DNA from: Escherichia phage 26
Length of the DNA: 42,462 nucleotides
Sequence record: NC_073320.1
Direction: 5' to 3' (one strand)
In this document: positions 2,766-42,068 of the stretch, in pieces
Position numbering within the stretch: position 1 is the first letter of the stretch
How the letters are laid out: each line of letters starts with the position of its first letter
Made by a program: the position numbers and the translations under genes
Notes under the pieces: generated by a model
What the model saw: the letters and a program-made list of their open reading frames with translations, nothing else
Told to the model about the DNA's origin: nothing
The model's database searches: none

Positions 2766-2794
2766 ACTATAATAGCTAACTATTCAGGTGTCAA
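2766..2794 (-). promoter_or_regulatory. sigma70-type promoter P3 (TTGACA-17-TATAGT) with AATAG-N4-CTATT dyad in the spacer
   Basis: minus-strand reading TTGACAcctgAATAGttagCTATTATAGT just upstream of SSB-like and polymerase genes. Confidence 0.5.
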
Positions 2795-2798
2795 CACT

Positions 2799-4040
2799 TT
2801 ATTCTAAATCTTCTTCACTAACCTGATTCCACTCAGGACGTTTGTCGTCTGCCGTTGCGACACATGGCGCACCGGTCTTGCGGGTAATGAAGTCTTTCAG
2901 TTCTTCTTCCGGTATAACTTTAACGGCCTCGGTCGGCGTCATAAGCACTTCTTTAGTCAGCTTGTCGCCGTACTTCTCGAATACCGCATCGGAATCTTTC
3001 CACGCACGGTTGCCCATCTTACCCTCAACCAGCTTGTACCCCGGCACTTTCTTACCGGAATGCAACGCGGCGGCCATAGCTTTTTCAACCTTATCAATGT
3101 GCTGACGCAACAACGGCAGCTTCTCATACTCAGCGACGAGTTGCTCCGGCGTAAGTTCCGGCGCAAAGTCGTCTTCCAGTTCTTCCGCCAGTACCGCGTT
3201 AACCGTCTTTGTACGCGCGGCGCATTGTTCTGAGAACCGACACCACTGACAACCATCGACCGACGGCCTGAAGTCCGACGCTTTCAGGTTCTTCTTGCCA
3301 CGGAAATACGCATCAAGAGCCAACATCGCACGTTTCTGCGCGAACTTAGCGAACAGTTCCAGACCTTCAACCGAGATGTCCCACTCCGATGCACCGCCAG
3401 CGTATGGCTGAAAGATGACCAGGCGAACAACTGTGATGTTATAACGTCTCTTGAGTCGGCGATAAACACCGAGAGCGTAAAGCATAAGCTGCTTGTTTTC
3501 TTTCGCTTCGACACGATGTCGTCCTGTTTTCAGGTCGCCGATGATTAGCATGTGCTCGTCGGTGTTGGCTAGTTCCTGAACGGCAACAAAGTCAGCGGTT
3601 CCGAACGTCTCTACACCTTCATATCCTGGATGCAATACCTCAGTAAGATTGACACGCATCTCGAGCTTGGCGAAAGTCGCTACATCTATAATCGCTTTGC
3701 AGTAGTCGGTGTACTTTCGCACCTGCTCAATCATGTCAGCCGTAATCAGTACCGCGCCTTTCATCGGACTGATTAGTGCCTTAATCGGGCCTTTACCCCC
3801 ATCCAGCACGTAAGCGCCGACTTCACGCACTAACGGTAACGCAGTGCCCTTGATGTACTGGTTAAGATGGACCTCAGCTATAGTGTGGCCCGCGATTCCT
3901 GTAATGGCGGATTTACCGGATGTGTTAGGAATATCTTTTTCACAGGCCAGTGATGCCGCACAGTAGAGCCACTTCTTGGCGCCTGATGGCGACAGTAGGG
4001 CGTGCACATCGTTATTGCCGCCACGTTCTTTTAAAATCAT
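2799..4040 (-). CDS. PD-(D/E)XK RecB-family nuclease with Cas4-like Cys cluster (DUF2800-type)
   Basis: motifs IIGDLKTG, EAKEN, QLMLYALG; C-terminal CQWCRFSEQC; start placed at ATG 4040 after RBS GGAGAGGG (track ORF begins at upstream TTG 4061). Confidence 0.7.
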   Translation of the reverse strand: MILKERGGNNDVHALLSPSGAKKWLYCAASLACEKDIPNTSGKSAITGIAGHTIAEVHLNQYIKGTALPLVREVGAYVLDGGKGPIKALISPMKGAVLITADMIEQVRKYTDYCKAIIDVATFAKLEMRVNLTEVLHPGYEGVETFGTADFVAVQELANTDEHMLIIGDLKTGRHRVEAKENKQLMLYALGVYRRLKRRYNITVVRLVIFQPYAGGASEWDISVEGLELFAKFAQKRAMLALDAYFRGKKNLKASDFRPSVDGCQWCRFSEQCAARTKTVNAVLAEELEDDFAPELTPEQLVAEYEKLPLLRQHIDKVEKAMAAALHSGKKVPGYKLVEGKMGNRAWKDSDAVFEKYGDKLTKEVLMTPTEAVKVIPEEELKDFITRKTGAPCVATADDKRPEWNQVSEEDLE

Positions 4041-4183
4041 TCTTCTACCCTCTCCACCCAAGCATCGTCAAAAGTATCAAAATCAAGATTATCGTATGCC
4101 GCGTACGCGTCATTTACATCTGAGTATCGGCTGTGCTCTGTAGCCACGCCATTAGTGTAAGTAAATATTGCCCAGTAAATCAT
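4037..4183 (-). CDS. hypothetical protein, 48 aa
   Basis: below track cutoff; RBS GAGGG 9 nt before ATG 4183; stop overlaps nuclease start (ATGA). Confidence 0.4.
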   Translation of the reverse strand: MIYWAIFTYTNGVATEHSRYSDVNDAYAAYDNLDFDTFDDAWVERVEE

Positions 4184-4194
4184 AATTCCGACCC

Positions 4195-5032: not shown

Positions 5033-5075
5033 AATTCCTACCCTCAGTTAAAGCGGCCCGAAGGCCGCCGGATAG

Positions 5076-5546
5076 TTATTCTTCTTCGAAATACTTGTTC
5101 TTGATTGCTGTCAGGCGTTCCAGATATTCAGCCAGGTCTTCGTCTTTAATCGCGGCAATCTTCATCTTCTTACCGGTGAACTCTTCCAGCAGTTCATCGG
5201 AATCATCGCACGCGGCATCGCTCGGACCTTCGTTAATCGCATCGTCGATAGCCTGAATCTGGGCACGCAGAGACTGGTAATCGACTTCTTCTTTCTCTTC
5301 TTCCGGCTCTGGCGTTGGTCCCTCTACTTTAGCTTTACGCGGTTTGCGTTTCGGCTTCTCTTCTTCCGCCGGTTTAGTGTCAACGATGTCTTCACCTTCG
5401 ACCGGGATTTCTTTTGTTGCTTCTTTTGCAACAGTAGGCTCGATTGTTGCGGTTTCAGCAACGGCAACTTGTTTCGCACTGTTCGCAGCAATCAGTTCAT
5501 GCGCGACTACGAAACGTTCCAGTAATTTTAAGAATTGGTCTAACAT
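5076..5546 (-). CDS. hypothetical acidic early protein, 156 aa
   Basis: RBS GAGGAGAG; Lys/Glu/Pro-rich low-complexity middle, acidic tail ..KYFEEE; first gene after promoter P2. Confidence 0.55.
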   Translation of the reverse strand: MLDQFLKLLERFVVAHELIAANSAKQVAVAETATIEPTVAKEATKEIPVEGEDIVDTKPAEEEKPKRKPRKAKVEGPTPEPEEEKEEVDYQSLRAQIQAIDDAINEGPSDAACDDSDELLEEFTGKKMKIAAIKDEDLAEYLERLTAIKNKYFEEE

Positions 5547-5577
5547 TTGTTTCTCTCCTCTCGTTTGGTACGGGCTA

Positions 5578-5607
5578 ACTATAATAGCGAACTATTCATT
5601 ATGTCAA
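5578..5607 (-). promoter_or_regulatory. sigma70-type promoter P2 (TTGACA-18-TATAGT) with AATAG-N4-CTATT dyad; divergent from XRE gene
   Basis: minus-strand reading TTGACAtaatgAATAGttcgCTATTATAGTTAGCC; same block as P1 and P3. Confidence 0.5.
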
Positions 5608-5671
5608 TTGGCTTTCCTAAAATAATTAATATGGTACTATTCACATATAAACTGACTAAGGAGTAATTACT

Positions 5672-5887
5672 ATGCAACCATCTGAACTAGGCATCCGTGT
5701 AGAACAACGCCGTAAAGAACTCGGCATCTCCCAGCGCCGTCTGGCCGTCCTGACTGGCGTTTCCCAGGGCGCGATTAACCAGCTGGCACTCGGGGTAACT
5801 CAGGACGTACGCCCGGCAACGTTGTTTAAACTGGCGGAAGTGCTGCAAGTAGATGCTAAGTGGCTGGCGCTAGGTGAAGGGGCTTAA
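5672..5887 (+). CDS. XRE-family (Cro/CI-like) helix-turn-helix transcriptional regulator
   Basis: 71 aa; HTH LGISQRRLAVLTGVSQGAINQLALG; RBS TAAGGAG; only plus-strand gene in the early arm. Confidence 0.8.
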   Translation: MQPSELGIRVEQRRKELGISQRRLAVLTGVSQGAINQLALGVTQDVRPATLFKLAEVLQVDAKWLALGEGA

Positions 5888-5902
5888 GCCCCTTTCTTTT
5901 TA
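5876..5902 (+). terminator. rho-independent terminator of XRE gene
   Basis: AAGGGGGC-TTAA-GCCCCTT hairpin containing the stop codon, then TTCTTTTT. Confidence 0.45.
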
Positions 5903-8392: not shown

Positions 8393-8626
8393 TTATTCCA
8401 GGTCTTCTAAAGTAGCTGTCATTCCGCGAACTTCAGCAACAGCACTATATTTCCCACAAACATTTTTCACGACACCGGATTTAACCAACACCTTCAGCGA
8501 CCCTTCAATGATGGCGGAACTATAATACTTAAAATAACTACGTCGCAAGTCGATAACGCTGCACGACCCTTTTTTACGTGTTAATGAAACGACTGCCGTA
8601 AATACGCGTGACTGGAACTCGGTCAT
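8393..8626 (-). CDS. hypothetical protein, 77 aa, C-terminal ..TLEDLE tail
   Basis: ORF upstream of primase-helicase; shares C-terminal EDLE motif with primase-helicase and nuclease. Confidence 0.5.
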   Translation of the reverse strand: MTEFQSRVFTAVVSLTRKKGSCSVIDLRRSYFKYYSSAIIEGSLKVLVKSGVVKNVCGKYSAVAEVRGMTATLEDLE

Positions 8627-8793
8627 TTTACATTCTCCTTAATCCACGATTCCACTTTCTCCGGGTCAAACGTACCTGGCTGGCGGCGGCCCATAATGCG
8701 AATACAACAATCGGGGAACTTCCCACTCTTTAACCAGTTATTCAGTGTGCGGCGAGTAACCCCGATACGCTCGGCTACTTCATTCTGCGTCAT
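8623..8793 (-). CDS. small HTH DNA-binding protein, AlpA/excisionase-like, 56 aa
   Basis: below track cutoff; MTQNEVAERIGVTRRTLNNWLKSGKFP; ATGA overlap with downstream gene; first gene of leftward arm. Confidence 0.55.
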   Translation of the reverse strand: MTQNEVAERIGVTRRTLNNWLKSGKFPDCCIRIMGRRQPGTFDPEKVESWIKENVK

Positions 8794-9262
8794 TCTAAAA
8801 CCCTCATTATCAGTTAACGAAACAGAGTATACATTGCGAATAATGGGAAATCAAACATAATCGCACCTATTGACATTATGAAAATATTCGTTTAAGGTGC
8901 TTCTATATCTTAGTTACTTTGATTCTTGTTCACCTTGTAAGAATGCTTAACCCGTGCGTTAAGCAAAGGGTTAAGCAGCAGGCTTACTGAACACGAGAAT
9001 TATTGTAACTTTCCTTCCTAAGTATCTCCGGTTGCCCTGGGCAAGCTATATTCTCATCGGCAGCATATCTCTTAAGTATCTGATTTTCTTAATGTGCCGT
9101 AGATTCGCAACCGTAAAAATGTAACGATTATTGGGCAGGCTTAAGGCCTGCCCTTTAGTTACCAAGTAATAAGAATAAAGGCACAACCCCTGCATGAAGA
9201 ATCACAACGGCAACGTAACTATCCTCTTGCACACCCCAACATAATAGGATACTATTCACTTA
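8794..9262. other. 469-bp non-coding region between divergent early arms; candidate origin/regulatory hub
   Basis: no ORF over 16 codons on either strand; GTTAAGC x3 (8945-8976), TAAGTATCT x2 (9019-9027, 9073-9081), hairpin GGGCAGGC-TTAAG-GCCTGCCC (9133-9153), dyad copy at 9243. Confidence 0.3.
9243..9256. promoter_or_regulatory. AATAG-N4-CTATT dyad copy upstream of first rightward gene
   Basis: flanks (ccaaCATAATAGGATACTATTCA) match the reverse complement of the 23-bp element at 19486 and 29732. Confidence 0.4.
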
Positions 9263-9973: not shown

Positions 9974-9976
9974 GTT

Positions 9977-10123: not shown

Positions 10124-10321
10124 ATGGGTGAGTGGATTAAGTGTAGTGAGCGGATGCCGGGTGATTTTGAAGATGTGCTGGTTACTGATGGGGATAACGT
10201 TGAGGTGATGTGGCGGCATCGCAGTGGTTTATGGGACTATTGGGCCCCGCGTAACCCGAATATCTCTAGTAACGATGTAACCCATTGGATGCCGTTGCCT
10301 GAGCCACCATCGTTGGTATAA
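10124..10321 (+). CDS. DUF551-like phage protein
   Basis: C-terminal VTHWMPLPEPP motif (family recalled from memory). Confidence 0.5.
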   Translation: MGEWIKCSERMPGDFEDVLVTDGDNVEVMWRHRSGLWDYWAPRNPNISSNDVTHWMPLPEPPSLV

Positions 10322-10339
10322 CAGGTGGTGTAACAGGTC

Positions 10340-10353
10340 AATAGGTTACTATT
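10340..10353. promoter_or_regulatory. AATAG-N4-CTATT dyad copy immediately before a terminator
   Basis: caATAGgttaCTATTtgg; no -35/-10 context, so looks like a binding site rather than a promoter. Confidence 0.35.
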
Positions 10354-10367
10354 TGGCTTTGTGACTT

Positions 10368-10400
10368 ACGCTGCTACACAGCAGCGTATCATTTTTCTCA
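10368..10400 (+). terminator. rho-independent terminator
   Basis: ACGCTGCT-ACAC-AGCAGCGT hairpin then ATCATTTTTCTCATTTTT. Confidence 0.55.
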
Positions 10401-10642: not shown

Positions 10643-10672
10643 TTGCACACTAAGATAGAATAGGCTACTATT
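10643..10672 (+). promoter_or_regulatory. promoter-like element (TTGCAC-17-TACTAT) with AATAG-N4-CTATT dyad in the spacer
   Basis: TTGCACactaagatagAATAGgctaCTATTcat, 30 nt upstream of the 10703 ORF. Confidence 0.4.
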
Positions 10673-13695: not shown

Positions 13696-13717
13696 ATCTA
13701 TTCCCTGCAATGACTAG

Positions 13718-13746
13718 TTGACTATTATCTTCGACCATATTATATT
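13718..13746 (+). promoter_or_regulatory. sigma70-type promoter (TTGACT-17-TATATT) with degenerate dyad ACTAG-N4-CTATT
   Basis: good -35/-10 match 34 nt upstream of the 13780 ORF. Confidence 0.5.
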
Positions 13747-13779
13747 TACTTCATCGACAACGAGAACGGAGTAGAGAAG

Positions 13780-18910: not shown

Positions 18911-18940
18911 AAAAAGGCCCCATAGCGGGGCCTTAGTTTT
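18911..18940. terminator. bidirectional terminator AAGGCCCC-ATAGC-GGGGCCTT
   Basis: 8-bp GC stem flanked by A-run upstream and T-run downstream; sits between convergent portal (+) and DnaN-like (-) genes. Confidence 0.6.
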
Positions 18941-19460
18941 ATTTAAATCTTGCGGGCATTAGCACCATATATGCAGTGTTTGAAAATGATATTTTGCATC
19001 CTCTGGTTTGGTCCTGGAAATCGAAACGAGCAATTTCATTTTTGTATGCCTTAGAAATCTTGTGCGCGTCCGCCAAGTAGGGCATGGTGAATCCTATGCT
19101 ATCAACCGCCCCAGGCGTGATGTGCGCCACACGCCGCCAGTCAGGAAATTTTCCGTCTACAACATCCACCGGAAGTGTACATATAAGCGAACGACTATCG
19201 TCATAGAAAGAAACACTGCTGTAGTCGTGGTCTACTTCCGCGTAGTTAAATTTATAAGGCTCTCTCCCTTTGATGTCTATGAGAACCCCATTCTCGACGT
19301 TTGTCTTAACATTGTCGCAGAACAATCTATGGCCGTCCGTAGACACTATCAACCCTTCCGGGTCTATGTAAAAAGCATTCAGATAGTAGCGCACATCATT
19401 TTTAGCTCTGCATATTTTTGCCCCTATATACGCAGGGAAAGTAATTACTGTAGTAATCAT
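18939..19460 (-). CDS. truncated beta sliding clamp (DnaN) homolog, 173 aa
   Basis: motifs DVRYYLN, STDGHRL, VDGKFPDWRRV, IGFTMPYL, AYMVLMPARF match domain II and the C-terminal end of domain III of bacterial DnaN (recalled E. coli DnaN); RBS GAGGAGGAG; opposite strand to flanking late genes. Confidence 0.7.
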   Translation of the reverse strand: MITTVITFPAYIGAKICRAKNDVRYYLNAFYIDPEGLIVSTDGHRLFCDNVKTNVENGVLIDIKGREPYKFNYAEVDHDYSSVSFYDDSRSLICTLPVDVVDGKFPDWRRVAHITPGAVDSIGFTMPYLADAHKISKAYKNEIARFDFQDQTRGCKISFSNTAYMVLMPARFK

Positions 19461-19485
19461 TTTAACTCCTCCTCGTTTCGATAAC

Positions 19486-19508
19486 TGAATAGTACCCTAT
19501 TATATTGG
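19486..19508. promoter_or_regulatory. 23-bp promoter-like element TGAATAGTACCCTATTATATTGG, copy 1
   Basis: identical 23-mer at 29732-29754; contains the dyad; reverse complement gives a perfect TATAAT positioned before the DnaN-like gene. Confidence 0.5.
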
Positions 19509-19561
19509 TGTCTGCAAATATTATTTTTATGCGTTACACTGGCGATACTACAGGAGGGCAC

Positions 19562-21141: not shown

Positions 21142-21157
21142 AACTATTCGAATAGTT
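21142..21157. repeat. perfect 16-bp palindrome AACTATTCGAATAGTT (everted copy of the dyad half-sites)
   Basis: self-complementary; overlaps a TTGACT -35-like hexamer. Confidence 0.6.
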
Positions 21158-21268
21158 GACTTTTCACTGAAAATGTGCTAAGCTCCACCTGAGCTTGTGA
21201 AGTATGAACAAGCGACCGCGGCGCGGGCAGGTAACGGAGCGGGACGTAAGTCCTGAGTGTAGTTACGC

Positions 21269-21297
21269 TGACGCGTTCGGAAGGGCCATACTATATT
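21269..21297 (+). promoter_or_regulatory. promoter-like element (TGACGC-17-TATATT) upstream of spanin genes
   Basis: -35/-10-like hexamers with 17-bp spacing. Confidence 0.35.
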
Positions 21298-21364
21298 GCT
21301 TGTATAAAAAGTAACTGGTTTACTGAGATTACGCCGTTTCTATGTTTAAATGATAAGCACTAGC

Positions 21365-21391
21365 GCCCCGCTTTAAGGCGGGGCTTTACTT
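21365..21391 (+). terminator. rho-independent terminator/attenuator
   Basis: GCCCCGC-TTTAAG-GCGGGGC then TTTACTT. Confidence 0.5.
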
Positions 21392-21408
21392 ATCGAGAAA
21401 GGGGAAAC

Positions 21409-21795
21409 ATGAATCTTAAAGCAACTGTCGTAGCGGGAGCATGTTTCATAGTCCTGGCTTACGCGCACGGCATCTACCAATACCGCGGCGGCTGGAACGA
21501 AGGCCGGGCGAATCTCGTTTCGCAGCAACAGCAGAAAGCACAGGCTGAGTTAGCGAAGAAAACACAACGGCAGCAGCAGGATGAATCGAAGGCCGCAGCC
21601 GCCGACAACGAAGGCAAGACGAAATCAGAGGTGATTACCCGTGAAGTCGTTAAGTACATTAAAACGCCTGGTCGCAGCGTGTGCACTTTCGACGATACTC
21701 GCGTCCTGCTCAAGTCCCGCGCCGTCGCAAACGCCAATTCCATCCCCGGATACGACAATGATGCAGCCGCCGTGCAAGCTGGCACCCCCAAGTAG
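21409..21795 (+). CDS. i-spanin (Rz-like)
   Basis: N-terminal TM LKATVVAGACFIVLAYAHGIY, Gln/Lys-rich coiled-coil, periplasmic C-terminus; contains embedded lipoprotein gene. Confidence 0.6.
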   Translation: MNLKATVVAGACFIVLAYAHGIYQYRGGWNEGRANLVSQQQQKAQAELAKKTQRQQQDESKAAAADNEGKTKSEVITREVVKYIKTPGRSVCTFDDTRVLLKSRAVANANSIPGYDNDAAAVQAGTPK

Positions 21796-28116: not shown

Positions 28117-28347
28117 TTACTCGTCGATATTGCTTCGATACTCCCGTAACTTCTCCAGACTTTCAATTGCTTCCGCTAAGTCGGTTCCGGTGTCCTTGTG
28201 CCCACGAAGACCCATACACAGCAGCTTCTTCAATGCGTGCTGTAGCGCCGGGTCGCGTATATCGAAGGCGCGTAGCACATCGTAAACGTCTACTGTCATT
28301 GTGCTGCCGTGAGTATTTGTCATTGTGCGGTTGTATTTTGAAGTCAT
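28117..28347 (-). CDS. hypothetical protein, 76 aa (moron cassette gene 3)
   Basis: ATGA overlap with phosphoesterase stop. Confidence 0.5.
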   Translation of the reverse strand: MTSKYNRTMTNTHGSTMTVDVYDVLRAFDIRDPALQHALKKLLCMGLRGHKDTGTDLAEAIESLEKLREYRSNIDE

Positions 28348-29474
28348 CCCAGCATCTCCGGTGAAATAGTTAAACGTGCGACCTCTCCATATTCTGCGCT
28401 ATATGTTATCACGTTAGCGCTACGACCAGACATCCATCCACCGCGGGAGGCGTATGCGTCTTTCGCGGCTAAGGTGCGGTGTTGCTCAACAATCATGTTA
28501 CGGCTTTCTACAATCTTCTGATGGTGCAGGTGGCCTACGTGGGCGTAGCTATAAACACTCTCGCCAAACGCTTTGCGGAACTTAGCTATCATAATGGGCT
28601 CGACCACCTCAAACCGGCATTTATGCCCGTGGGTAAAGAACAGCGTCGTTTTGCCGTGTCGCACCATCTTGTAAACATCCGGCGACGTATCGACGAACAC
28701 ACGCGGCTCGTTGTCGTACAGCGTACTGAACATCTCGGCCAGCCAAATCATTCCGCTTTCATCGTGGTTCCCTTGCACTATAAGCAAGCGAACATTTTTA
28801 TGCTTAACCAGCGCCATATCTACAACACGGCGCACCATACGAATCATGTAGCGAACAAGTTTTTGGTAGCGAGTGTCCGCGTCAAGGGCGTGACCGCTTG
28901 CCGGCGTAACGGCAACCAGACTATCGAAGTGCGCGAAGTCACCTAACAGGTTAATAACTCCGGTTCCAGCGTCCGGCGCTTTCTGAAACGCCGCGTCGAA
29001 CCATCGGGAGAACAGGCCTTCCGCAATCTTCATATCCCAGTCGTCGCCGCTCTCGTCGGCCCAGGCCAGCATGCCGAGATGGAAATCTGATACCGTGTAA
29101 AGATTGAGTAGTTTATCGTCTCGTTTAGCGCGAACGGCTTTAACAGGCGCAACTGGAGTAATCTCTGACTTCATGCCTTCGATTACGGCTTTCATTAACT
29201 CGACCTGACGTTCGGCGTCAGTGTCGGTCTTAACCCATTGCAATTTAGTGTTGCCGAACTCGTCCACCAGTGACGACGTTCCTTTAATCTTGTAGCCGTC
29301 TGGTACAAGATGACTGACGTCGCGGCCGTGTCCCACGCCTTTCTTAGCCAGCTTTGCTTTACGGATACGAATTACGCGGTCTGAGATGCCATATTTACGG
29401 GCTATATAGATAGTTTTAACTCCGGCGTTCAATTCTTCCTGTAACTGTTCGTCGGTTATTTTCTTCCGGGCCAT
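28344..29474 (-). CDS. HTH domain - calcineurin-like metallophosphoesterase fusion (moron cassette gene 2)
   Basis: N-terminal MARKKITDEQLQEELNAGVKTIYIARKYGISDR; phosphoesterase motifs SDFHLG, GDFAHFD, GNHD, THGH, GHLHH. Confidence 0.7.
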   Translation of the reverse strand: MARKKITDEQLQEELNAGVKTIYIARKYGISDRVIRIRKAKLAKKGVGHGRDVSHLVPDGYKIKGTSSLVDEFGNTKLQWVKTDTDAERQVELMKAVIEGMKSEITPVAPVKAVRAKRDDKLLNLYTVSDFHLGMLAWADESGDDWDMKIAEGLFSRWFDAAFQKAPDAGTGVINLLGDFAHFDSLVAVTPASGHALDADTRYQKLVRYMIRMVRRVVDMALVKHKNVRLLIVQGNHDESGMIWLAEMFSTLYDNEPRVFVDTSPDVYKMVRHGKTTLFFTHGHKCRFEVVEPIMIAKFRKAFGESVYSYAHVGHLHHQKIVESRNMIVEQHRTLAAKDAYASRGGWMSGRSANVITYSAEYGEVARLTISPEMLG

Positions 29475-29512: not shown

Positions 29513-29704
29513 TCACTTCTCGTTAACATTCGAGTTGCAAGCCCAGATTAAAATAAATACCCACGGCAACAGAACCCAACCAAGAAATAGATTAGCCATG
29601 AATATCGCCAACTTCGCTTTATGGTTGCGGAAATACGCAACCAGGAAAGGCGCGAAATAAGCGAGCAGTGCAAACAGAATTAAGGAAACTGGTAAACTTG
29701 ACAT
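29513..29704 (-). CDS. small two-TM membrane protein, superinfection-immunity (Imm)-like (moron cassette gene 1)
   Basis: FAPFLVAYFRNHK..FLGWVLLPW; start ATG 29704 after GGAGGG (track ORF begins at 29719); family match from memory. Confidence 0.5.
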   Translation of the reverse strand: MSSLPVSLILFALLAYFAPFLVAYFRNHKAKLAIFMANLFLGWVLLPWVFILIWACNSNVNEK

Positions 29705-29731
29705 TTTAAATCCCTCCATTGTTGGTGTGGG

Positions 29732-29754
29732 TGAATAGTACCCTATTATATTGG
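29732..29754. promoter_or_regulatory. 23-bp promoter-like element TGAATAGTACCCTATTATATTGG, copy 2
   Basis: identical to 19486-19508; reverse complement supplies TATAAT about 40 nt upstream of the Imm-like gene start. Confidence 0.5.
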
Positions 29755-29871
29755 GGTGCGCAAGTAGTGTGCTAGAATAATTTTGCGCCTAGTGTCGCAC
29801 ACGAAAAGCGGGTGGTTCCCGTCTGGCGCATTTATCGTTAACCAGTAACCTCTTAACCAAAGGATTAAAGA

Positions 29872-34288: not shown

Positions 34289-36828
34289 TCATCCACTACA
34301 CCCGCAACGAAGACGGGACGTTCTCACAAAAACGGCATAACGACTCGCCGCTGAATTTCGTCGTAAACCATATCCCTGACGGTGTGCCGTTTCGCGTTTT
34401 CCTCGAAGAGATAGGAGAGGATAGCGACGTAACAGAAGATTTTGACGCGTTAAAACAGGATGCTGTTTTCCACGTCCTGGAGGGCGCTGGCGGCGGTGCT
34501 ATCAAGGGTGTGATGAAAGTGTTCAGCATAATCCTTAAACCACTAGCTAAATTACTCACACCATCAACAAAAGGCGCGTCTAACAATCTCGCTAACCAGC
34601 AAGCAGACTCTCCGAACAACAGCCTGACAGACCGGAATAACAAGGCCCGCCCATACGAGCGAACTTATGACATCTGCGGCCGGGTGCAGACGATACCTAA
34701 TAACCTTATGACCACTTATAAGGTTTTCGATAATGCAGGCCGTATCATCGAGTACGGCTACTATGACGCCGGGCGTGGGTATCTCGACGTTAAAGCAGAA
34801 GACATCACGGACGGTGACACCAAAGTCCAGGAGATAACCGGAACTTCTGTCGCTGTGTATGCTCCGTACACATCACCCAATAACACAAGCTCACCGCAAC
34901 TTCTTGTCGGCGAACCTATCGACCAAAAGTTGTATATCACCATCGCATCTAATGAAGTAGACGGTGTGGTACTGAAAGCTCAAAACGGCATAAGAGTAAA
35001 CCCAAGCGATACCGGCGAGATATCGCTGCAAGGGACAACGGGTATTGTACGTGACGCAACCGGTGATTCCGCGTTTACAGAGATTTTGTCAGTTGGGGAC
35101 GTGGCGGTTTTCAATCTCATTCTGGTAAAAGATGTCGCTAACGTAAGCGGTAATTACACGGTCACTTACGTCGATGATTTCGAGGTTAGAGTCTCTGTAG
35201 GCGGTATGCTCGCCGAATGGCAGAAGCTACCGTCTGGTTTTACCCGGCTTACACAGGGCAATGAGGCGTGGATTTCACCCTCAAACACATACGATAAATC
35301 ATTAACCGACTGGACAACGCTTAACCGTCTGCCAGTAGAGCGCATCGTTGCAAATATTGCCGCCGCTAATGGCATGTATAAAGACAATGGCAGTAAACTA
35401 AGGGCCTCTGTCACCGTCGAGTTGCAGTATCAGTTACTTGATGACACAGGAACGCCTTACGGTCCTGTATACAGTAAACAAGGCACTATCTCCGGGCGCT
35501 CATCGGATTACACTGGCGTGACAATATATGCTGACCTGCCGTCGGCGTATAATGTTCGTGTACGGGCGCGAAGGGTGACAAACCTGGACCTTGCTTTCGA
35601 GGGTACCGTAGTTGATGAGGTTTCGTACATAAACCTGTACGGGCAAATACGCGACACCACACCTAACTACGGCAACAGAACCACCGTACATTCCGCACGT
35701 AAACAGACACCCAGGGCCGCAGAGGTTAAACAGCCACAATTGCGAATGGTGGTAACTGAGATGGTGCACAAGTACCTCGGTAACGGTGTTTTCGACTCCG
35801 TAAGAACACCAAACACGCAAGCGGTACAGTCGCTGATTCGTCTTGCACGTGACCCGGATGTTGGTGCGTTGAATCTGACAACGGCAAATATGGACAAACT
35901 GCTGGCGGTACAAAGCGAAATTGAGAGTTATTTCGGTAACGCATCAGCAGGAGAGTTTTGCTATACGTTTGACGATTACAAAACTACGATGCAGGACATA
36001 GTAACTACGATAGCGGAAGCGATTTTCTGCACTCCATATCGGAGAGGCGCCGACATTCTTCTTGACTTTGAACGCCCACGGATTGGCCCTGAGATGGTAT
36101 TCACCCACCGCAGCAAAACTACCGCTTCGGAAAAGTGGACGCGCACATTCAACGACGCTCAGGTATACGATAGTCTTAAGTTCTCCTACATCGACCCAGA
36201 TACTAACGTAAAAGAGACCATCAGCATTCCCGCCGAGGGCGGTGTTAACACAGAAACGTATGACTCTAAAGGTATCCGTAACTATCGACAGGCATACTGG
36301 GCCGCATACCGCCGATATCAGAAAAACCTGTTGAAAAAGGTCACGGTATCTTTCACGGCGACAGAAGAAGGGGTTTTTGCGATGCCAGGACGTGCCGTAA
36401 GTGTGGTGAAAGGTTCTCGCATGGCCCCTCAGGATGGCTATATAGTCGCCGTTAACGGCCTGACGCTTACGCTATCGCAACCAGTTACGTTTACCCCAGG
36501 GGATGACCACTCACTGATTCTCAAGAAGCGGGACGGAGGTGTTCAGAGTGTTACCGTTGTTCCGGGAAGTCATGACCGTGAAGTGATTATGTTATCCGCA
36601 CCGCAGGAAGCAATTTACACAGGTAATAGTGCACTAAAAACTGAGTTTTCATTCGGCAACGAAGCAAGGCATAATGCTCAGAAGATAGTTGTTTCTTCAA
36701 TCGACCCGGGCGACGACCGCACGGTCAAGATTACAGGCTACAACTATGACGACGGATTCTATAAATACGACGGCGTCGCACCTTTCGGTCGCGGTTTCTC
36801 CGACGGATTCAGCAATGGTTTTAGTTAA
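34279..36828 (+). CDS. tail tip / central fibre protein (J-like)
   Basis: 849 aa after minor tail proteins; TTG start after AGGAG. Confidence 0.6.
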   Translation: MAIVIHYTRNEDGTFSQKRHNDSPLNFVVNHIPDGVPFRVFLEEIGEDSDVTEDFDALKQDAVFHVLEGAGGGAIKGVMKVFSIILKPLAKLLTPSTKGASNNLANQQADSPNNSLTDRNNKARPYERTYDICGRVQTIPNNLMTTYKVFDNAGRIIEYGYYDAGRGYLDVKAEDITDGDTKVQEITGTSVAVYAPYTSPNNTSSPQLLVGEPIDQKLYITIASNEVDGVVLKAQNGIRVNPSDTGEISLQGTTGIVRDATGDSAFTEILSVGDVAVFNLILVKDVANVSGNYTVTYVDDFEVRVSVGGMLAEWQKLPSGFTRLTQGNEAWISPSNTYDKSLTDWTTLNRLPVERIVANIAAANGMYKDNGSKLRASVTVELQYQLLDDTGTPYGPVYSKQGTISGRSSDYTGVTIYADLPSAYNVRVRARRVTNLDLAFEGTVVDEVSYINLYGQIRDTTPNYGNRTTVHSARKQTPRAAEVKQPQLRMVVTEMVHKYLGNGVFDSVRTPNTQAVQSLIRLARDPDVGALNLTTANMDKLLAVQSEIESYFGNASAGEFCYTFDDYKTTMQDIVTTIAEAIFCTPYRRGADILLDFERPRIGPEMVFTHRSKTTASEKWTRTFNDAQVYDSLKFSYIDPDTNVKETISIPAEGGVNTETYDSKGIRNYRQAYWAAYRRYQKNLLKKVTVSFTATEEGVFAMPGRAVSVVKGSRMAPQDGYIVAVNGLTLTLSQPVTFTPGDDHSLILKKRDGGVQSVTVVPGSHDREVIMLSAPQEAIYTGNSALKTEFSFGNEARHNAQKIVVSSIDPGDDRTVKITGYNYDDGFYKYDGVAPFGRGFSDGFSNGFS

Positions 36829-36840
36829 AGAGGACTCTAT

Positions 36841-38847: not shown

Positions 38848-38979
38848 ACTCTTCGGATAACTTCTCCAGTACAAACGCCAGTTGTGCATTAGCAGCGTCT
38901 CTCTGTTGCCGTAGGCGTATAACCTCCTCTTCGAGTTCCTTGATACGTTTTTGCAATGCGGGAATCGGGGCTATGATGT

Positions 38980-39465
38980 TCACGCGGTTTCTCCGTGTTT
39001 TTCATGAAATCCGTAAGCAGCCTCCGCAGCTTTACGTGCGGCAACAGCTTCGTCAAAATTATCAAACTGTCCTAGATGTATTTTTCTTCTGTCGACTTTT
39101 ATCTATGCCACCCATTTGTTTCTTCTCTTTTCCCGCCATACGCCAAGAGCGCCACTAGTATTGTTTACCCCTATTGATGCGTTGCGGCTATTTCCGGTGT
39201 TGGTAACTTTCCGTAGGTTGCATATTCGGTTATCAGTTCGAATATGATTGATGTGGTCTATCTGTTCCTGTGGCGTAAGTGGGTTATCTGGGTTGCAGAT
39301 ATTCCACGCTAACCGGTGCGCCAGTTATAATTTTCCGTTTACTCGGATACGAATGTACCCATCCCGTGGGCAAAAACATCCTGCTTTCTTTCCGATAAAA
39401 CCCATACGTTTTGTTTCTACCCATGTAAAAATACCGGTTTCTGGGTCGTAAGATATCTTGCTCAT
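38980..39465 (-). pseudogene. HNH-AP2 homing endonuclease gene disrupted by two in-frame stop codons
   Basis: frame from ATG 39465 reads MSKISYDPETGIFTW..GYIRIRVNGKL-TAA-LAHRLAWN..IDHINHIRTDNRICNLR..NKWVA-TAG-IKVDRRKIHLGQFDNFDEAVAARKAAEAAYGF..-TGA; no frameshift, stops at 39325-39327 and 39103-39105. Confidence 0.7.
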
Positions 39466-40886
39466 TTCTTACTCCTACGTTTCATATACTCAAGGAGGAT
39501 ATCCTGCACCTGTTTTTTCTCGTCTGTACGAGCGGCGACAACTTCATCAAGAGTATCTCGGGCTATTATTTTATAAATGAATACAGACCGTTTGTATCCG
39601 GATTGCATCTGCCTTACCGGGCCTATGCGCTCGATAACCTGCAAATAGTGTTCCAGGTTCCACCCCTGACTCATAAAGGCCATGTGATGCCCGCCGTGTT
39701 GTAGCGACAGCCCGTGACCTGCGGACGCTGGGTGTATCAGGAGCATAGGTATTTCACCACGGTTCCACGCTTCCATCTGCTTATTACCCTTAGCCCCTTT
39801 GGCGAACGCCTGTGCTTGCGGGAATCGCTTAAGGATACGCTCCAGTTCGTGCTTAAACTGATATGCCACCAGTAGCGGCGCGCCATGTAACTCCTCAACA
39901 ATGGACTCCAGCGCATCCAGTTTCGTGTCGTGCACTTTCTCCCAGTCTTTTGTTGCTTCGCCGTCTGGCCCTGACACATATACGGCACCAGATGCAATCT
40001 GCAAACACTTCGACGTCTTCGCTGCGGCGTTAGCGGCTTCAACTTCCCCGCTCTCCAGTTCCGCAAATAACTTCTCCTCCATATCTATGTACGCCTGACG
40101 CGCCTTCTTCGGAAGGTCTATTTCAACCGGCACAATAATCGGCGATTCACATCCGAACCACTCGGCGGCGTCAATCGTGAGACTAATGTCCTTCATCTTC
40201 TGGTGAATTTCATTATCCGCCCCCGGGCGGGCATGATACTCCCGTGCCATAGCCGATTTGCCTTTTTGCACCGAGTTAAACCAGCGGTCGGTGAACGCTG
40301 TGTACGAAGAACCGAGGCGCTCGCCTGCGTCGATAAACCAGTTCTGACCCCACAAGTCTTTTAGGCCGTTTGGCGATGGCGTACCAGTCAGGTTGATAAA
40401 ACGCTTAACCTTACCGAACGCAACCTTACTGAGCGCCTTCGCCCTCTTGCTGCCACCTGAACGACTACGGAACGATTTCAGCTTAGTGCTTTCATCCGCA
40501 ACAATAACCGTAAAAGGCCAGTCGTCTTTGCCGTAGTAGTCAATCAGCCACTCGATAACTTCGTAGTTCGTGCACACCACGTTGGCATCGGACTCCAGCG
40601 CCGCGATGCGGCGCTTCTCTGAACCGGTCGCATCTACAACACTCAGGCATGGGAATTGCCATTTCTCTTGTTCTGCGGGCCACGTACCAGACGCAACACG
40701 TAAAGGAGCCAGAATTAACACTCGGTCATCGTCATTAAGTTGCCCATTACGGAACAGTCTGTTGAGAACCCACAACGTTGACCCTGACTTACCACTGCCC
40801 ATCGAAGCCCATATGTTACATCGAGGGTGCCGCAACATGAACGAAGTCATGAGCTTCTGATATTCGCGCCTTTGAAACTTAGACAT
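39462..40886 (-). CDS. SNF2/DEAD-like superfamily 2 helicase
   Basis: Walker A MGSGKS, motif II IVADEST, motif VI QVIERIGPVRQ. Confidence 0.8.
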   Translation of the reverse strand: MSKFQRREYQKLMTSFMLRHPRCNIWASMGSGKSGSTLWVLNRLFRNGQLNDDDRVLILAPLRVASGTWPAEQEKWQFPCLSVVDATGSEKRRIAALESDANVVCTNYEVIEWLIDYYGKDDWPFTVIVADESTKLKSFRSRSGGSKRAKALSKVAFGKVKRFINLTGTPSPNGLKDLWGQNWFIDAGERLGSSYTAFTDRWFNSVQKGKSAMAREYHARPGADNEIHQKMKDISLTIDAAEWFGCESPIIVPVEIDLPKKARQAYIDMEEKLFAELESGEVEAANAAAKTSKCLQIASGAVYVSGPDGEATKDWEKVHDTKLDALESIVEELHGAPLLVAYQFKHELERILKRFPQAQAFAKGAKGNKQMEAWNRGEIPMLLIHPASAGHGLSLQHGGHHMAFMSQGWNLEHYLQVIERIGPVRQMQSGYKRSVFIYKIIARDTLDEVVAARTDEKKQVQDILLEYMKRRSKK

Positions 40887-41562
40887 GATTAGCCTCGTAA
40901 ACTGCTTTTGCGAAACCCCGCGGAGTAAGGCTGCGTATTGTTTTTGTCCCCACCGATTTACCGCCTAATTTATTGTGTTGGTCAGAGTAACCGCCAACCA
41001 CGGCGACACATGATTTAACAGGCATCACAAAACCGTTACCCGCCCAAATACATGTCTTCTTAGGGTACGCGTCCCGCGGTTTTATGTATTCGGGGAACAT
41101 TGGGTGCGTGTCGTCTTCGGGTAAATAGCCGCCGTATTCGTATGGATTGAACGCGTAGTCAGGCTTACGCCATAAAGACGAAAGAACGCTAACAGGGTTC
41201 TCAATCATATAAGGTACGTTGTACTTTTTAGCCAGACGCGCCGCCACTTTGCATGTAATTACGGCCTCTACCTGAAACGTGGGGTTCTTCTTCCGCTTCG
41301 TTTCAAAATGCGCCGCGCCGCTAACGGCTAAATCTGTGCACGGAGGGAACGCAAAAATAATATCCGGCGCAACCCCGAAGTCGAATTTATTGTCAATCCA
41401 AGCGTTTATATAGTGGATGTTTTCGTGTTCAACTTTTGCACCCAATCGTGCGTAGTCTCCGTGGTCGGCGCCATCGTAGTTGAAACAATAGCAAGTATGG
41501 CCTGCTTCCGCCCACGGTTGGGCCATAAGGCCCGAACCGTCAAACAATGACCAGACAATCAT
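40879..41562 (-). CDS. C5-cytosine DNA methyltransferase-like protein (short, no obvious target-recognition domain)
   Basis: motif I-like LFDGSG, motif IV-like FPPCT, motif VI-like ENP; 227 aa. Confidence 0.5.
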   Translation of the reverse strand: MIVWSLFDGSGLMAQPWAEAGHTCYCFNYDGADHGDYARLGAKVEHENIHYINAWIDNKFDFGVAPDIIFAFPPCTDLAVSGAAHFETKRKKNPTFQVEAVITCKVAARLAKKYNVPYMIENPVSVLSSLWRKPDYAFNPYEYGGYLPEDDTHPMFPEYIKPRDAYPKKTCIWAGNGFVMPVKSCVAVVGGYSDQHNKLGGKSVGTKTIRSLTPRGFAKAVYEANHV

Positions 41563-41750
41563 TTCAGCACCAGAACTAACTCTTTACGCCCGAACGCCGT
41601 AACGTTACCGGTTACATCTTCGATAACCAGTTTACCGTTCGACTCGACGTACACCGTATCAACGGCAACAGGACTACGGGTCTTAACGTTGAAAATCATG
41701 TCGCCTGGTACGATGTCACGTGCGGGTTTGCGGTCATATTCGTGTTTCAT
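41559..41750 (-). CDS. hypothetical protein, 63 aa
   Basis: ATGA overlap with methyltransferase-like gene. Confidence 0.5.
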   Translation of the reverse strand: MKHEYDRKPARDIVPGDMIFNVKTRSPVAVDTVYVESNGKLVIEDVTGNVTAFGRKELVLVLK

Positions 41751-41780
41751 TTCTCAATTCCTTATATTGTTGGTGTAAGG

Positions 41781-42068
41781 CTAACTATAATAGTTCGCTA
41801 TTAGGTCGTCAACCTGTTTAAACGAACCGACGACAAAAACATTCGCACCACGTTTCCGGAATCTCTCATGTTCCCGTAGCTGGTGCGGGTCTGGCTTCGT
41901 GTTTTCGTCTTTCTTTATCTCAACGAACCAGATGATGCCGCCGGGGAGAATTACCAGGAGGTCCATGGCGGCTCGCCGACCTTCAAATGCCATCTTGCGA
42001 ACGAGGCCACCAATGGCCTCGAATCGGTATTTTGCGTATTTCTGGATTCGCCCTTCAGGCGTACTCAT
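41781..42068 (-). CDS. VRR-NUC domain nuclease
   Basis: DLLVILPGGIIWFVEIKKDENTKPDPHQLREHERF; start ATG 42068 (track ORF begins at 42077). Confidence 0.65.
   Translation of the reverse strand: MSTPEGRIQKYAKYRFEAIGGLVRKMAFEGRRAAMDLLVILPGGIIWFVEIKKDENTKPDPHQLREHERFRKRGANVFVVGSFKQVDDLIANYYS
41784..41812 (-). promoter_or_regulatory. sigma70-type promoter P1 (TTGACG-17-TATAGT) with dyad, embedded in the 3' coding end of the VRR-NUC gene
   Basis: minus-strand TTGACGacctAATAGcgaaCTATTATAGT-TAG; the TAG is the VRR-NUC stop. Confidence 0.45.

What the first reader, a model, noticed from the sequence alone, without database searches (positions are those of the whole stretch)
2771..41802. Dyad AATAG-N4-CTATT at nine promoter-proximal sites: candidate operator network
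An inverted repeat AATAG-N4-CTATT occurs at 2771-2784, 5583-5596, 9243-9256, 10340-10353, 10659-10672, 19488-19501, 29734-29747 and 41789-41802, plus a degenerate ACTAG-N4-CTATT at 13713-13726 and an everted perfect palindrome at 21142-21157. In the three leftward early promoters (P3 2766-2794, P2 5578-5607, P1 41784-41812) it sits exactly in the spacer between TTGAC(A/G) and TATAGT, within a conserved ~30-bp block. At 10340 it has no promoter context, which argues for a protein-binding site rather than simple promoter duplication. A dimeric HTH protein is the obvious candidate binder; the genome encodes an XRE/Cro-like protein (5672-5887) and an AlpA-like protein (8623-8793). Occurrence counts are from manual scanning of intergenic regions, so more copies may exist.
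Basis: partly seen in the sequence, partly recalled or inferred. Interest (0 to 1): 0.6.

Follow-up and report, generated by a model that had tools for sequence, protein, structure and literature searches.

The report
Repressor-binding dyad on phage early promoters
A 14-bp inverted repeat sits on the core of almost every early promoter of this virulent E. coli phage and its relatives, and is most likely the binding site of the phage's own small Cro-like repressor; this is an ordinary kind of phage gene switch, and the repeat was already published under a mistaken label.

Summary
AATAG-N4-CTATT occurs exactly 8 times (0.04 expected), only with a 4-bp gap, and is the commonest inverted repeat in the window.

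The window is a Kagunavirus (Guernseyvirinae). Seven exact sites overlap the spacer or -10 of sigma-70-type promoters from two unrelated promoter families, in different registers. One site (10340) is an orphan.

In 39 related loci both half-sites of P2 are invariant, while the central 4 bp and neighbouring spacer bases vary. The dyad persists in Jerseyvirus, Serratia phage Tsm2 and Enterobacter phage phiEap-2. In TS6/Cornellvirus it is replaced, symmetrically, by TATTA-N6-TAATA. The motif follows phage lineage, not host.

The only recognisable DNA-binding protein shared by all eight genomes compared is the 71-aa XRE protein. Its best sequence and fold match is phage 434 Cro. The AlpA-like protein is missing from four genomes that still carry a dyad.

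The best reading is a dispersed operator set for a Cro-like repressor of early promoters. Binding is not shown.

The motif was already published as PHIRE "phage RNAP promoters", but this genome shows no RNA polymerase gene. This is a new member of a known kind, of modest interest.

The parts
41789..41802 (.). Exact dyad AATAGTTCGCTATT inside leftward promoter P1 (41812-41784, TTGACG-17-TATAGT). It occupies the spacer plus the first T of the -10 (class A register). Downstream genes are 41559-41750, 40879-41562 and the SNF2 helicase 39462-40886.
   Evidence: conserved in 34 Kagunavirus loci
5583..5596 (.). Exact dyad AATAGCGAACTATT inside leftward promoter P2 (5607-5578, TTGACA-18-TATAGT). P2 is divergent from the XRE gene and drives 5076-5546 and downstream genes, including nuclease 2799-4061.
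   Evidence: both half-sites invariant in 39/39 loci anchored independently of the dyad
2771..2784 (.). Exact dyad AATAGCTAACTATT inside leftward promoter P3 (2794-2766, TTGACA-17-TATAGT). P3 drives the DUF2815 gene 2071-2697 and the DNA polymerase gene that runs off the window start.
9243..9256 (+). Exact dyad AATAGGATACTATT in rightward class B promoter (-35 TTGCAC 9227-9232, -10 TACTAT 9250-9255). The right half-site lies inside the -10. The leader, RBS and ATG follow at about 9290.
10659..10672 (+). Exact dyad AATAGGCTACTATT in rightward class B promoter (-35 TTGCAC 10643-10648, -10 TACTAT 10666-10671). An ATG follows at about 10703.
19488..19501 (-). Exact dyad (AATAGGGTACTATT on the minus strand) in leftward class B promoter (-35 TTGCAG = plus-strand 19512-19517; -10 TACTAT = 19489-19494). 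It drives the 173-aa gene 18939-19460, a RusA-like PHROG, which sits antisense inside the late region.
29734..29747 (-). Exact dyad (AATAGGGTACTATT on the minus strand) in leftward class B promoter (-35 TTGCGC = plus-strand 29758-29763). It drives the superinfection-immunity-like gene 29513-29719 and the metallophosphatase gene 28344-29474.
   Evidence: In the Jerseyvirus orthologue the dyad lies 7 rather than 11 bp from the -35, with -10 TATTAT
10340..10353 (.). Orphan exact dyad AATAGGTTACTATT with no -35. It lies between the stop of gene 10124-10321 and terminator hairpin 10367-10388, and is preceded by the direct repeat GGT(A/G)TAACAGGT x2 (10314-10337).
   Evidence: It is conserved in about 9 related loci and in RP180, with the central 4 bp varying
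5628..5641 (+). One-mismatch dyad AATATGGTACTATT over the XRE gene's own promoter. This is an extended -10 (TG 5632-5633, TACTAT 5635-5640) with no recognisable -35. The mismatch creates the TG. Its centre is 45 bp from the centre of the P2 dyad.
   Evidence: AATATG(G/A)TACTATT is present in 39/39 Kagunavirus loci
5672..5887 (+). Gene for the 71-aa XRE/HTH_3 protein, the proposed dyad-binding repressor. It converges with the helicase-primase gene on terminator 5876-5895.
   Evidence: Pfam HTH_3 E=1.1e-12. Best PDB sequence hits are 434-derived: the designed 434 variant dh434, then 434 Cro and 434 repressor. AF2 model pLDDT 77.5, top fold hit 2cro. Present in all 8 Guernseyvirinae genomes compared
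13713..13726 (+). One-mismatch dyad ACTAGTTGACTATT centred on the -35 of promoter 13718-13746 (TTGACT-17-TATATT), downstream of a terminator. The Jerseyvirus orthologue reads AATAGTTGACTAGT.
21142..21164 (+). Everted perfect palindrome AACTATTCGAATAGTT (21142-21157) overlapping the one-mismatch dyad AATAGTTGACTTTT (21151-21164). That dyad covers the -35 of promoter 21156-21184 (TTGACT-17-TAAGCT). Whether this belongs to the same regulon is uncertain.
   Evidence: conserved in RP180

Best explanation
The dyad is the operator of a phage-encoded dimeric DNA-binding protein, most probably the 71-aa 434-Cro-like XRE protein (5672-5887). Host sigma-70 RNA polymerase fires the early promoters on infection. 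These are three strong leftward ones for the replication genes and four TTGC-type ones for small early genes, superinfection immunity and accessory enzymes. The XRE protein is made from its own extended -10 promoter. As it accumulates, a dimer binds the 14-bp sites. The sites span about -25 to -12 in class A and -19 to -6 in class B, so binding would exclude polymerase and turn early transcription down. The conserved imperfect site on its own promoter would give weaker negative autoregulation. Shown here: the motif, its statistics, its promoter positions, its conservation pattern, the lineage-specific symmetric switch, and the fold and distribution of the candidate proteins. Inferred: that a protein binds, that it is the XRE protein, and that the effect is repression.
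For: 1. There are 8 exact sites against 0.04 expected, with strict 4-bp spacing, and this is the top dyad in the genome. 2. The same dyad lies in two otherwise dissimilar promoter families: TTGACA...TATAGT with the dyad 4-5 bp from the -35, and TTGCAC...TACTAT with the dyad 11 bp from the -35. The orthologous Jerseyvirus immunity-gene promoter uses a third register. The extended motif TGAATAG..CTATTAT occurs in both orientations relative to the downstream gene. 3. In alignments anchored on downstream leader sequence, the -35, both half-sites and the -10 are conserved, while the central 4 bp and the 4-5 bp next to the -35 vary. P2 shows this in 39/39 loci and 35 unique sequences. 4. All class B promoters found in Kagunavirus, and the orthologous first rightward promoter in Jerseyvirus, SS3e and Tsm2, keep the non-consensus -10 TACTAT; the exception is the Jerseyvirus/SS3e immunity-gene promoter, which uses TATTAT. 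5. The K-type dyad is enriched in Kagunavirus, Jerseyvirus, Tsm2 and phiEap-2. It is absent from TS6 and Cornellvirus SP-031, where TATTA-N6-TAATA is enriched instead (7 sites and 9 sites at up to one mismatch, about 1 expected). This is a change in both half-sites. 6. The motif follows phage lineage, not host. Jerseyvirus and Cornellvirus both infect Salmonella, yet their dyads differ. 7. The XRE protein is the only recognisable sequence-specific DNA-binding protein present in all 8 genomes. It is 434 Cro-like in length, sequence and predicted fold. From my own knowledge, 434 Cro binds 14-bp dyad operators. 8. The XRE gene is flanked by two sites in a divergent-promoter arrangement.
Against: No binding or expression data exist for this protein or these sites. 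The XRE recognition helix differs between Kagunavirus (SQGAINQ) and Jerseyvirus (SQSLITH) although the dyad is the same. The only helix-3 residue unique to the lineage with the altered dyad is S31T, so protein-operator covariation is weak. The AlpA-like protein is far better conserved between Kagunavirus and Jerseyvirus (86%) than the XRE protein (48%), which on its own would fit an unchanged site better. Sites within one class are paralogous promoter copies, so the 8 sites are not 8 independent events. The one published Kagunavirus RNA-seq is too coarse to show early shut-off, and it places DNA polymerase, methylase and immunity genes in its 'late' class. The helicase-primase/AlpA operon promoter (8854-8826) carries no dyad, so the network does not cover all early genes.
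Confidence: 0.55

Rival explanations
1. The dyad is an operator, but for a different phage protein. That could be the 56-aa AlpA-like HTH_17 protein (8623-8793) or an unannotated small protein such as the conserved 156-aa product of 5076-5546.
For: The AlpA-like protein is an HTH (Pfam HTH_17). It is 84-86% identical across Kagunavirus and Jerseyvirus, the genera with the most exact dyads. Its own operon promoter lacks the dyad, as might be expected of an upstream regulator. The 156-aa protein is present in all genomes and has no known function.
Against: The AlpA-like protein is undetectable by tblastn (E up to 1) in Tsm2, phiEap-2, TS6 and SP-031. Tsm2 and phiEap-2 still carry the K-type dyad at orthologous promoters, with 1 exact plus 9 one-mismatch sites in phiEap-2 against 1.3 expected. 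From my own knowledge, HTH_17/excisionase-type proteins are not typical binders of 14-bp perfect dyads. The 156-aa protein has no DNA-binding signature.
Confidence: 0.15
2. The dyad has no function of its own. It is a by-product of a few duplicated or gene-converted promoter modules whose AT-rich -10-like sequences happen to be palindromic.
For: Sites within a class share 30-35 bp beyond the dyad, and 19488 and 29734 share an identical 20-mer. Half-site CTATT overlaps or abuts the -10 in every promoter copy. PHIRE detects the motif simply as a repeated 20-mer.
Against: The same perfect dyad occurs in two promoter families with different -35, -10 and register, and in an orphan copy without a promoter. 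Half-sites are invariant while the interspersed spacer bases drift. In the orthologous immunity-gene promoter the dyad moved relative to the -35 but stayed intact. The left half-site changes together with the -10-overlapping half in the Cornellvirus lineage.
Confidence: 0.1
3. The motif is a phage-specific promoter, read by a phage-encoded RNA polymerase or by host polymerase redirected by a phage factor. This is how it is labelled for Kagunavirus fBC-Eco01.
For: PMC9825357 lists seven such 20-mers as 'Phage RNAP promoter', consensus tgAATAGTa-ccTATTat-T. Class B promoters match the sigma-70 consensus in only about 7 of 12 positions, so they might need help (my reading).
Against: No RNA polymerase gene is evident. 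All ORFs over 400 aa are nuclease, helicase-primase, terminase, portal, tape measure, tail, tailspike, SNF2 helicase or DNA polymerase. The motif is symmetric and occurs in both orientations and three registers relative to the downstream gene. A directional promoter element would not behave that way. Class A copies sit inside near-consensus sigma-70 promoters.
Confidence: 0.07
4. The dyad is bound by a host transcription factor or nucleoid protein that the phage exploits.
For: The K-type dyad is shared by phages of E. coli, Salmonella, Serratia and Enterobacter, which have many conserved regulators in common.
Against: Jerseyvirus and Cornellvirus/TS6 infect the same host species but carry different dyads, so the motif tracks phage lineage. 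The composite promoter-dyad pattern occurs in IMG/VR only on contigs of 45 kb or less, nearly all 41-45 kb and many of them the Kagunavirus contigs already fetched. I recall no enterobacterial regulator with this consensus, which is memory and not a test.
Confidence: 0.05

Closest known systems
Phage 434 Cro / 434 repressor with their 14-bp operators (ACAA-N6-TTGT)
   Same: The protein has the same length (71 aa) and five-helix XRE fold, about 40% identity over 60 aligned residues to 2cro, and the helix-3 'Q' start. The operator is a 14-bp dyad whose centre is not sequence-conserved. Sites overlap core promoter elements, and the regulator gene sits beside divergent promoters.
   Different: The half-site sequence differs (AATAG). 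There are no tandem tripartite OR/OL arrays and no CI partner, integrase or lysogeny module, and the phage is virulent. Sites are single and dispersed over at least 8 promoters across 42 kb. Binding is untested.
Dispersed-operator regulons of phage repressors: P1 C1 operators, mycobacteriophage L5 gp71 'stoperators', phiC31 conserved inverted repeats (from my own knowledge)
   Same: One small repressor has many near-identical sites scattered through the genome, mostly at or near promoters, with occasional non-promoter copies comparable to 10340.
   Different: Those systems maintain lysogeny in temperate phages, and the P1 and L5 sites are asymmetric. Here the phage is virulent and the sites are perfect dyads restricted to early promoters.
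PHIRE 'phage-specific promoter' motif reported for Kagunavirus fBC-Eco01 (PMC9825357) and, by count only, vB_EcoS-Golestan (PMC7203180)
   Same: For fBC-Eco01 it is the same sequence element: PP1/PP2 TGAATAGTACCCTATTATAT is identical to window 19488 and 29734, and PP5 corresponds to the XRE-promoter site. For Golestan I saw only that PHIRE found seven promoters; the sequences were not read.
   Different: The paper ascribes it to a phage-encoded RNA polymerase. No such gene is evident here, and the symmetry, orientation and register data argue for an operator overlapping host-type promoters.
Restriction-modification controller (C) proteins such as C.AhdI and C.BclI
   Same: They are small XRE-fold dimers among the top fold matches. 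From my own knowledge, they bind dyad operators overlapping their own promoter and autoregulate.
   Different: C-proteins act at one locus, upstream of their own gene and the endonuclease gene, and both activate and repress. Here there are many sites genome-wide and no R-M context at the XRE gene.

Membership tests
XRE / Cro-C1-type HTH proteins (Pfam HTH_3): applies to the candidate binder 5672-5887 | Significant match to the HTH_3 profile above the curated cut-off | tested here: met
   PF01381 E=1.1e-12, 48.2 bits against cut-off 23
XRE / Cro-C1-type HTH proteins (Pfam HTH_3): applies to the candidate binder 5672-5887 | Five-helix 434 Cro/repressor-like fold with helix 2 - turn - helix 3 | tested here: met
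   AF2 model with helices 5-17, 21-28, 32-39, 48-57 and 62-66. Top Foldseek hit is 2cro, TM 0.69/0.75. phmmer to 434 Cro gives E=7e-6
Cro/CI-type dyad operator overlapping a promoter | Two-fold symmetric site with fixed half-site spacing, conserved half-sites and a variable centre | tested here: met
   Only gap 4 occurs. Half-sites are invariant and the centre varies across 39 loci. At least 18 different central tetranucleotides are seen
Cro/CI-type dyad operator overlapping a promoter | Site overlaps the -35, spacer or -10 so that bound protein would occlude RNA polymerase | tested here: met
   Seven of 8 exact sites span about -25..-12 or -19..-6 of sigma-70-type promoters. Promoters and start sites are predicted, not mapped
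Cro/CI-type dyad operator overlapping a promoter | Operator(s) adjacent to the regulator gene (autoregulation, divergent promoters) | tested here: met
   The exact site in P2 and the one-mismatch site in the XRE promoter have centres 45 bp apart, directly upstream of the XRE gene. The latter is invariant in 39/39 loci
Cro/CI-type dyad operator overlapping a promoter | Specific binding by the cognate protein and repression in vivo | not testable with these tools
   Needs EMSA or footprinting and reporter or infection assays
Cro/CI-type dyad operator overlapping a promoter | Covariation of operator sequence with the regulator's recognition residues across lineages | tested here: inconclusive
   The dyad switches symmetrically in TS6/Cornellvirus. 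The only lineage-unique helix-3 change is S31T, and Kagunavirus and Jerseyvirus helices differ without a change of dyad
Lambdoid genetic switch (CI + Cro + tandem operators, temperate) | CI-type repressor with C-terminal oligomerisation/peptidase domain, integrase, tandem OR/OL arrays | tested here: not met
   No integrase or CI-type repressor appears in any annotation or family hit seen, though not every window ORF was scanned. Operators are single and dispersed
Phage-RNA-polymerase-specific promoter (the literature label) | Phage encodes its own RNA polymerase | tested here: not met
   All large ORFs are assigned to other functions
Phage-RNA-polymerase-specific promoter (the literature label) | Motif has a fixed orientation and distance relative to the transcribed gene | tested here: not met
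   The extended motif lies in opposite orientations in class A and class B, three registers relative to the -10 are seen, and one copy is an orphan
MerR-type spacer operators | Dyad in an over-long (19-20 bp) -35/-10 spacer | tested here: not met
   Spacers are 17-18 bp

The most novel reading that the evidence does not exclude
A whole subfamily of virulent siphophages used for biocontrol (Guernseyvirinae) runs its early programme through one Cro-like repressor without a CI partner. Its operators are built into the -10/spacer of nearly all early promoters. Operator and -10 hexamer co-evolve: TACTAT with AATAG/CTATT in most genera, and TAATAT with TATTA/TAATA in Cornellvirus. A single helix-3 N-cap change (S31T) would be a candidate specificity switch. 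The imperfect dyads over the -35 of the two late-type promoters might make the same protein the early-to-late switch.
Probability: 0.3. Interest if true: 0.5.

Novelty: new member of a known kind. Interest (0 to 1): 0.33.

Why it matters
Kagunaviruses and Jerseyviruses are among the phages most often isolated for E. coli and Salmonella therapy and food biocontrol, yet their transcription programme is essentially unstudied. Published genome papers label this motif as a promoter for a phage RNA polymerase, and I found no such gene. Reassigning it as an operator set for a Cro-like repressor gives a testable model of early gene shut-off. It also yields a compact orthogonal repressor/operator pair, with a natural variant pair in Cornellvirus, and corrects the annotation. 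It does not reveal a new kind of mechanism.

Tried and rejected
1. I tried to retrieve distant XRE homologues with genomic context, to see whether the dyad travels with the gene outside the subfamily. The Tsm2 XRE scan of IMG/VR found nothing. The word-indexed protein search returned only relatives at 75% identity or more, on Kagunavirus-size contigs. The test could not be run.

2. The published Kagunavirus RNA-seq (PMC12645636) uses 5-120 min sampling and classes defined by peak time. It is too coarse and probably spans several infection rounds, so I did not use it for or against shut-off.

3. The Rfam scan of the whole window gave no hits. An RNA role for the dyad is rejected anyway. A 5-bp AU-rich stem is weak, and class A copies lie upstream of the predicted start site.

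4. A bidirectional -10 idea, in which the palindrome serves divergent promoters, was rejected. The opposite strand lacks an acceptable -10 or -35 at most sites. Only 19488 has a weak 9/12 opposite-strand match.

5. MerR-like spacer activation was rejected because spacers are 17-18 bp.

6. A resemblance of the 13713 site (ACTAGTTGACTATT) to the TrpR operator is recalled from memory only. It does not extend to the exact dyads and is inconsistent with the lineage-not-host pattern.

7. Literature searches for MB78 promoters and for Cro-like regulators of virulent phages gave nothing usable.


Full report
**What the window is.** The first 12 kb are about 90% identical to Kagunavirus genomes of the subfamily Guernseyvirinae, such as phages M01, ZCEC5 and fFiEco02. 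Gene order matches fFiEco02 and RP180. The 42.5-kb window looks like a whole genome opened inside the DNA polymerase gene. These are virulent siphophages. No integrase or CI-type repressor appears in any annotation or family hit I saw.

**Checking the observation.**
Expectation is 0.04 and no shuffle reached eight.
- With one mismatch there are eleven sites against 1.02 expected.
- Among all AATAG...CTATT pairs with gaps of 0-20 bp, only the 4-bp gap occurs.
- It is the most frequent 5-Nx-5 inverted repeat in the window. The runners-up are terminator stems.

**Anatomy: class A.** Read in the direction of the downstream gene, the sites fall into two promoter families. Class A comprises P1, P2 and P3, all leftward. 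Its form is TTGAC(A/G)-N4/5-AATAG-N4-CTATT-ATAGT. The -10 TATAGT starts at the last T of the dyad and the spacer is 17-18 bp. These are the three best sigma-70 consensus matches in the genome, and they head the replication-gene operons.

**Anatomy: class B.** Class B comprises 9243 and 10659 (rightward) and 19488 and 29734 (leftward). Its form is TTGC(A/G)(C/G)-N11-AATAGGnTACTATTCA. The -10 TACTAT lies inside the right half-site. A conserved leader, RBS and start codon follow within about 30 nt. Class B promoters head small early genes, a 173-aa gene, and a superinfection-immunity plus metallophosphatase pair. The last two units sit antisense inside the late region.

**Anatomy: other sites.**
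- Site 10340 has the class B form of the dyad but no -35. It lies between a stop codon and a terminator.
- Site 5628-5641 (AATATGGTACTATT) covers an extended -10 promoter (TGgTACTAT) 31 nt upstream of the XRE start codon. The single mismatch is what creates the TG.
- Two late-type promoters, 13718-13746 and 21156-21184, carry one-mismatch dyads centred on their -35.
- The promoter of the AlpA-like/helicase-primase operon (8854-8826) has no dyad.

**Evidence that the dyad is a separate element.**
- The same perfect dyad sits in two families with different -35, different -10 and a 6-bp difference in register.
- In the orthologous immunity-gene promoter of Jerseyvirus it sits in a third register: 7 rather than 11 bp from the -35, with -10 TATTAT.
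- The slightly longer shared motif TGAATAG...CTATTAT points in opposite directions relative to the gene in the two classes.
- I extracted P1, P2 and P3 from 34-39 related loci by anchoring on downstream leader sequence, independently of the dyad. The -35, both half-sites and the -10 are conserved. The central four bases and the bases between -35 and dyad vary. For P2 both half-sites are invariant in 39 of 39 loci, representing 35 unique sequences.
- At least 18 different central tetranucleotides occur.
- The imperfect XRE-promoter site stays imperfect, as AATATG(G/A)TACTATT, in 39 of 39 loci.

**Across genera.** The table gives counts of each dyad type, exact plus one-mismatch, with the expected number of sites at up to one mismatch.

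| Genome | K-type AATAG-N4-CTATT | Expected | C-type TATTA-N6-TAATA | Expected |
|---|---|---|---|---|
| Window | 8+3 | 1.0 | 0+1 | 1.25 |
| RP180 | 8+4 | 1.1 | 0+1 | 0.9 |
| Jerseyvirus jersey | 4+3 | 1.35 | 0+2 | 1.6 |
| SS3e | 3+6 | 0.97 | 0+2 | 1.32 |
| Serratia phage Tsm2 | 2+2 | 0.47 | 0+1 | 0.25 |
| Enterobacter phage phiEap-2 | 1+9 | 1.28 | 0+0 | 0.93 |
| Salmonella phage TS6 | 0+0 | 1.08 | 3+4 | 1.03 |
| Cornellvirus SP-031 | 0+1 | 1.07 | 3+6 | 0.77 |

- The K-type sites lie at orthologous promoters.
- In TS6 and SP-031 the orthologous promoters carry the C-type dyad with -10 TAATAT. This is one change mirrored in both half-sites.
- Jerseyvirus and Cornellvirus share a host species. 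Phages of four host genera share the K-type dyad. The motif therefore follows the phage and not the host, which argues for a phage-encoded symmetric binder.
- The composite class A pattern occurs in IMG/VR in 62 stretches, all on contigs of 45 kb or less and nearly all on 41-45 kb contigs, many of them the Kagunavirus contigs already fetched.

**Which protein binds.**
- The 71-aa product of 5672-5887 matches Pfam HTH_3 with E=1e-12. Its best solved relatives by sequence are 434-derived: a designed 434 variant, then 434 Cro (also 71 aa) and the 434 repressor.
- Its AF2 model (pLDDT 77.5) has the five-helix fold, with 2cro as top hit. From my own knowledge, 434 Cro and 434 repressor bind 14-bp dyads with a non-contacted centre. 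They share one specificity at about 48% identity.
- A presence/identity matrix of all window ORFs against seven other Guernseyvirinae genomes shows the XRE protein in all of them, at 38-97% identity. It is the only recognisable sequence-specific DNA-binding protein among the universal genes.
- The AlpA-like HTH_17 protein (8623-8793) is 84-86% conserved in Kagunavirus and Jerseyvirus. It is undetectable in Tsm2, phiEap-2, TS6 and SP-031, although Tsm2 and phiEap-2 keep the K-type dyad.
- The XRE gene is flanked by two sites in a divergent-promoter arrangement.
- Weak points: helix 3 differs between Kagunavirus and Jerseyvirus without a change of dyad. The only helix-3 residue unique to the switched lineage is S31T. 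From memory of the 434 repressor-operator complex, the equivalent Thr27 helps form a thymine-methyl pocket, so this change is a plausible determinant. It remains unproven.

**Mechanism proposed.** Host sigma-70 polymerase fires the dyad-bearing early promoters. The XRE protein accumulates from its extended -10 promoter. Dimers then occupy sites spanning roughly -25..-12 (class A) or -19..-6 (class B) and block polymerase. The conserved weaker site on its own promoter would give autoregulation. The roles of the orphan site and of the imperfect -35-centred sites are unknown. Binding, the identity of the binder and the sign of regulation are all inferred.

**Relation to the literature.** The repeat is not new. 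The fBC-Eco01 genome paper lists seven 'Phage RNAP promoters' with consensus tgAATAGTa-ccTATTat-T. PP1 and PP2 are identical to window 19488 and 29734, and PP5 corresponds to the XRE-promoter site. Golestan reports seven PHIRE promoters. No RNA polymerase gene is evident here, since all large ORFs have other assignments. The symmetry, dual orientation and variable register do not fit a directional promoter element. The label is probably a misattribution. The only Kagunavirus RNA-seq is too coarse to test the model.

**Verdict.** This is a real, strongly non-random, subfamily-wide regulatory dyad. It is best explained as the dispersed operator set of a 434-Cro-like repressor acting on early host-type promoters of a virulent phage. 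It is a new member of a known kind, so its general interest is modest. Its value lies in correcting annotation and in giving a directly testable model for a phage group widely used in biocontrol.

Noticed in passing
window 21142-21408: Promoter 21156-21184 (TTGACT-17-TAAGCT) is preceded by a perfect 16-bp everted palindrome. About 180 nt of non-coding sequence and a strong terminator (21365-21384) follow it, just before the gene at 21409. The layout recalls lambda PR'-6S RNA-tR', where late genes need antitermination. The RNA folds moderately better than shuffles (z = -2.1), there is no Rfam hit, and the arrangement is conserved in RP180.
   Followed up: partly
window 8860-9240: About 380 bp of non-coding DNA lie between the AlpA-like/helicase-primase operon promoter and the first rightward class B promoter. 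The stretch contains a symmetric GC-rich hairpin (9133-9153). It could be a replication origin or a small RNA locus.
   Followed up: no
window 10314-10388: A tandem direct repeat GGT(A/G)TAACAGGT x2 lies just upstream of the orphan dyad and is followed by a terminator hairpin. The whole block is conserved in about 9 related loci and in RP180. It might be a second protein-binding element, or a tiny transcript consisting of little more than the terminator.
   Followed up: partly
window 8826-8854 (minus strand): The predicted promoter (TTGATT-17-TATACT) of the AlpA-like/helicase-primase operon is the one replication-region promoter without the dyad, which suggests a separately controlled, possibly immediate-early, unit. 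The K1B4 RNA-seq paper lists an HTH-domain gene among its four 'early' genes.
   Followed up: partly
L052 (Raoultella phage RP180) 34870-35082; L039 (Jerseyvirus jersey): The XRE gene is intact in RP180 (97% identity) but is not annotated as a CDS in the GenBank record. Every one of the 58 CDS in the Jerseyvirus record used here is named 'hypothetical protein'.
   Followed up: no
L042 (Serratia phage Tsm2) about 13720-13760 and 36800-36840: Two Tsm2 promoters share an identical non-symmetric variant, AGTAGAATACGATT (with -10 TACGAT), in place of the dyad. This shows that promoter copies can drift together away from symmetry in a lineage with few exact sites.
   Followed up: no
window 19478-19506 (+): A weak opposite-strand sigma-70 match (TCGATA-17-TATATT, 9/12) overlaps the 19488 dyad and points into the head-morphogenesis gene 19505-20605. 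One bound protein could therefore affect divergent transcription at this site.
   Followed up: no
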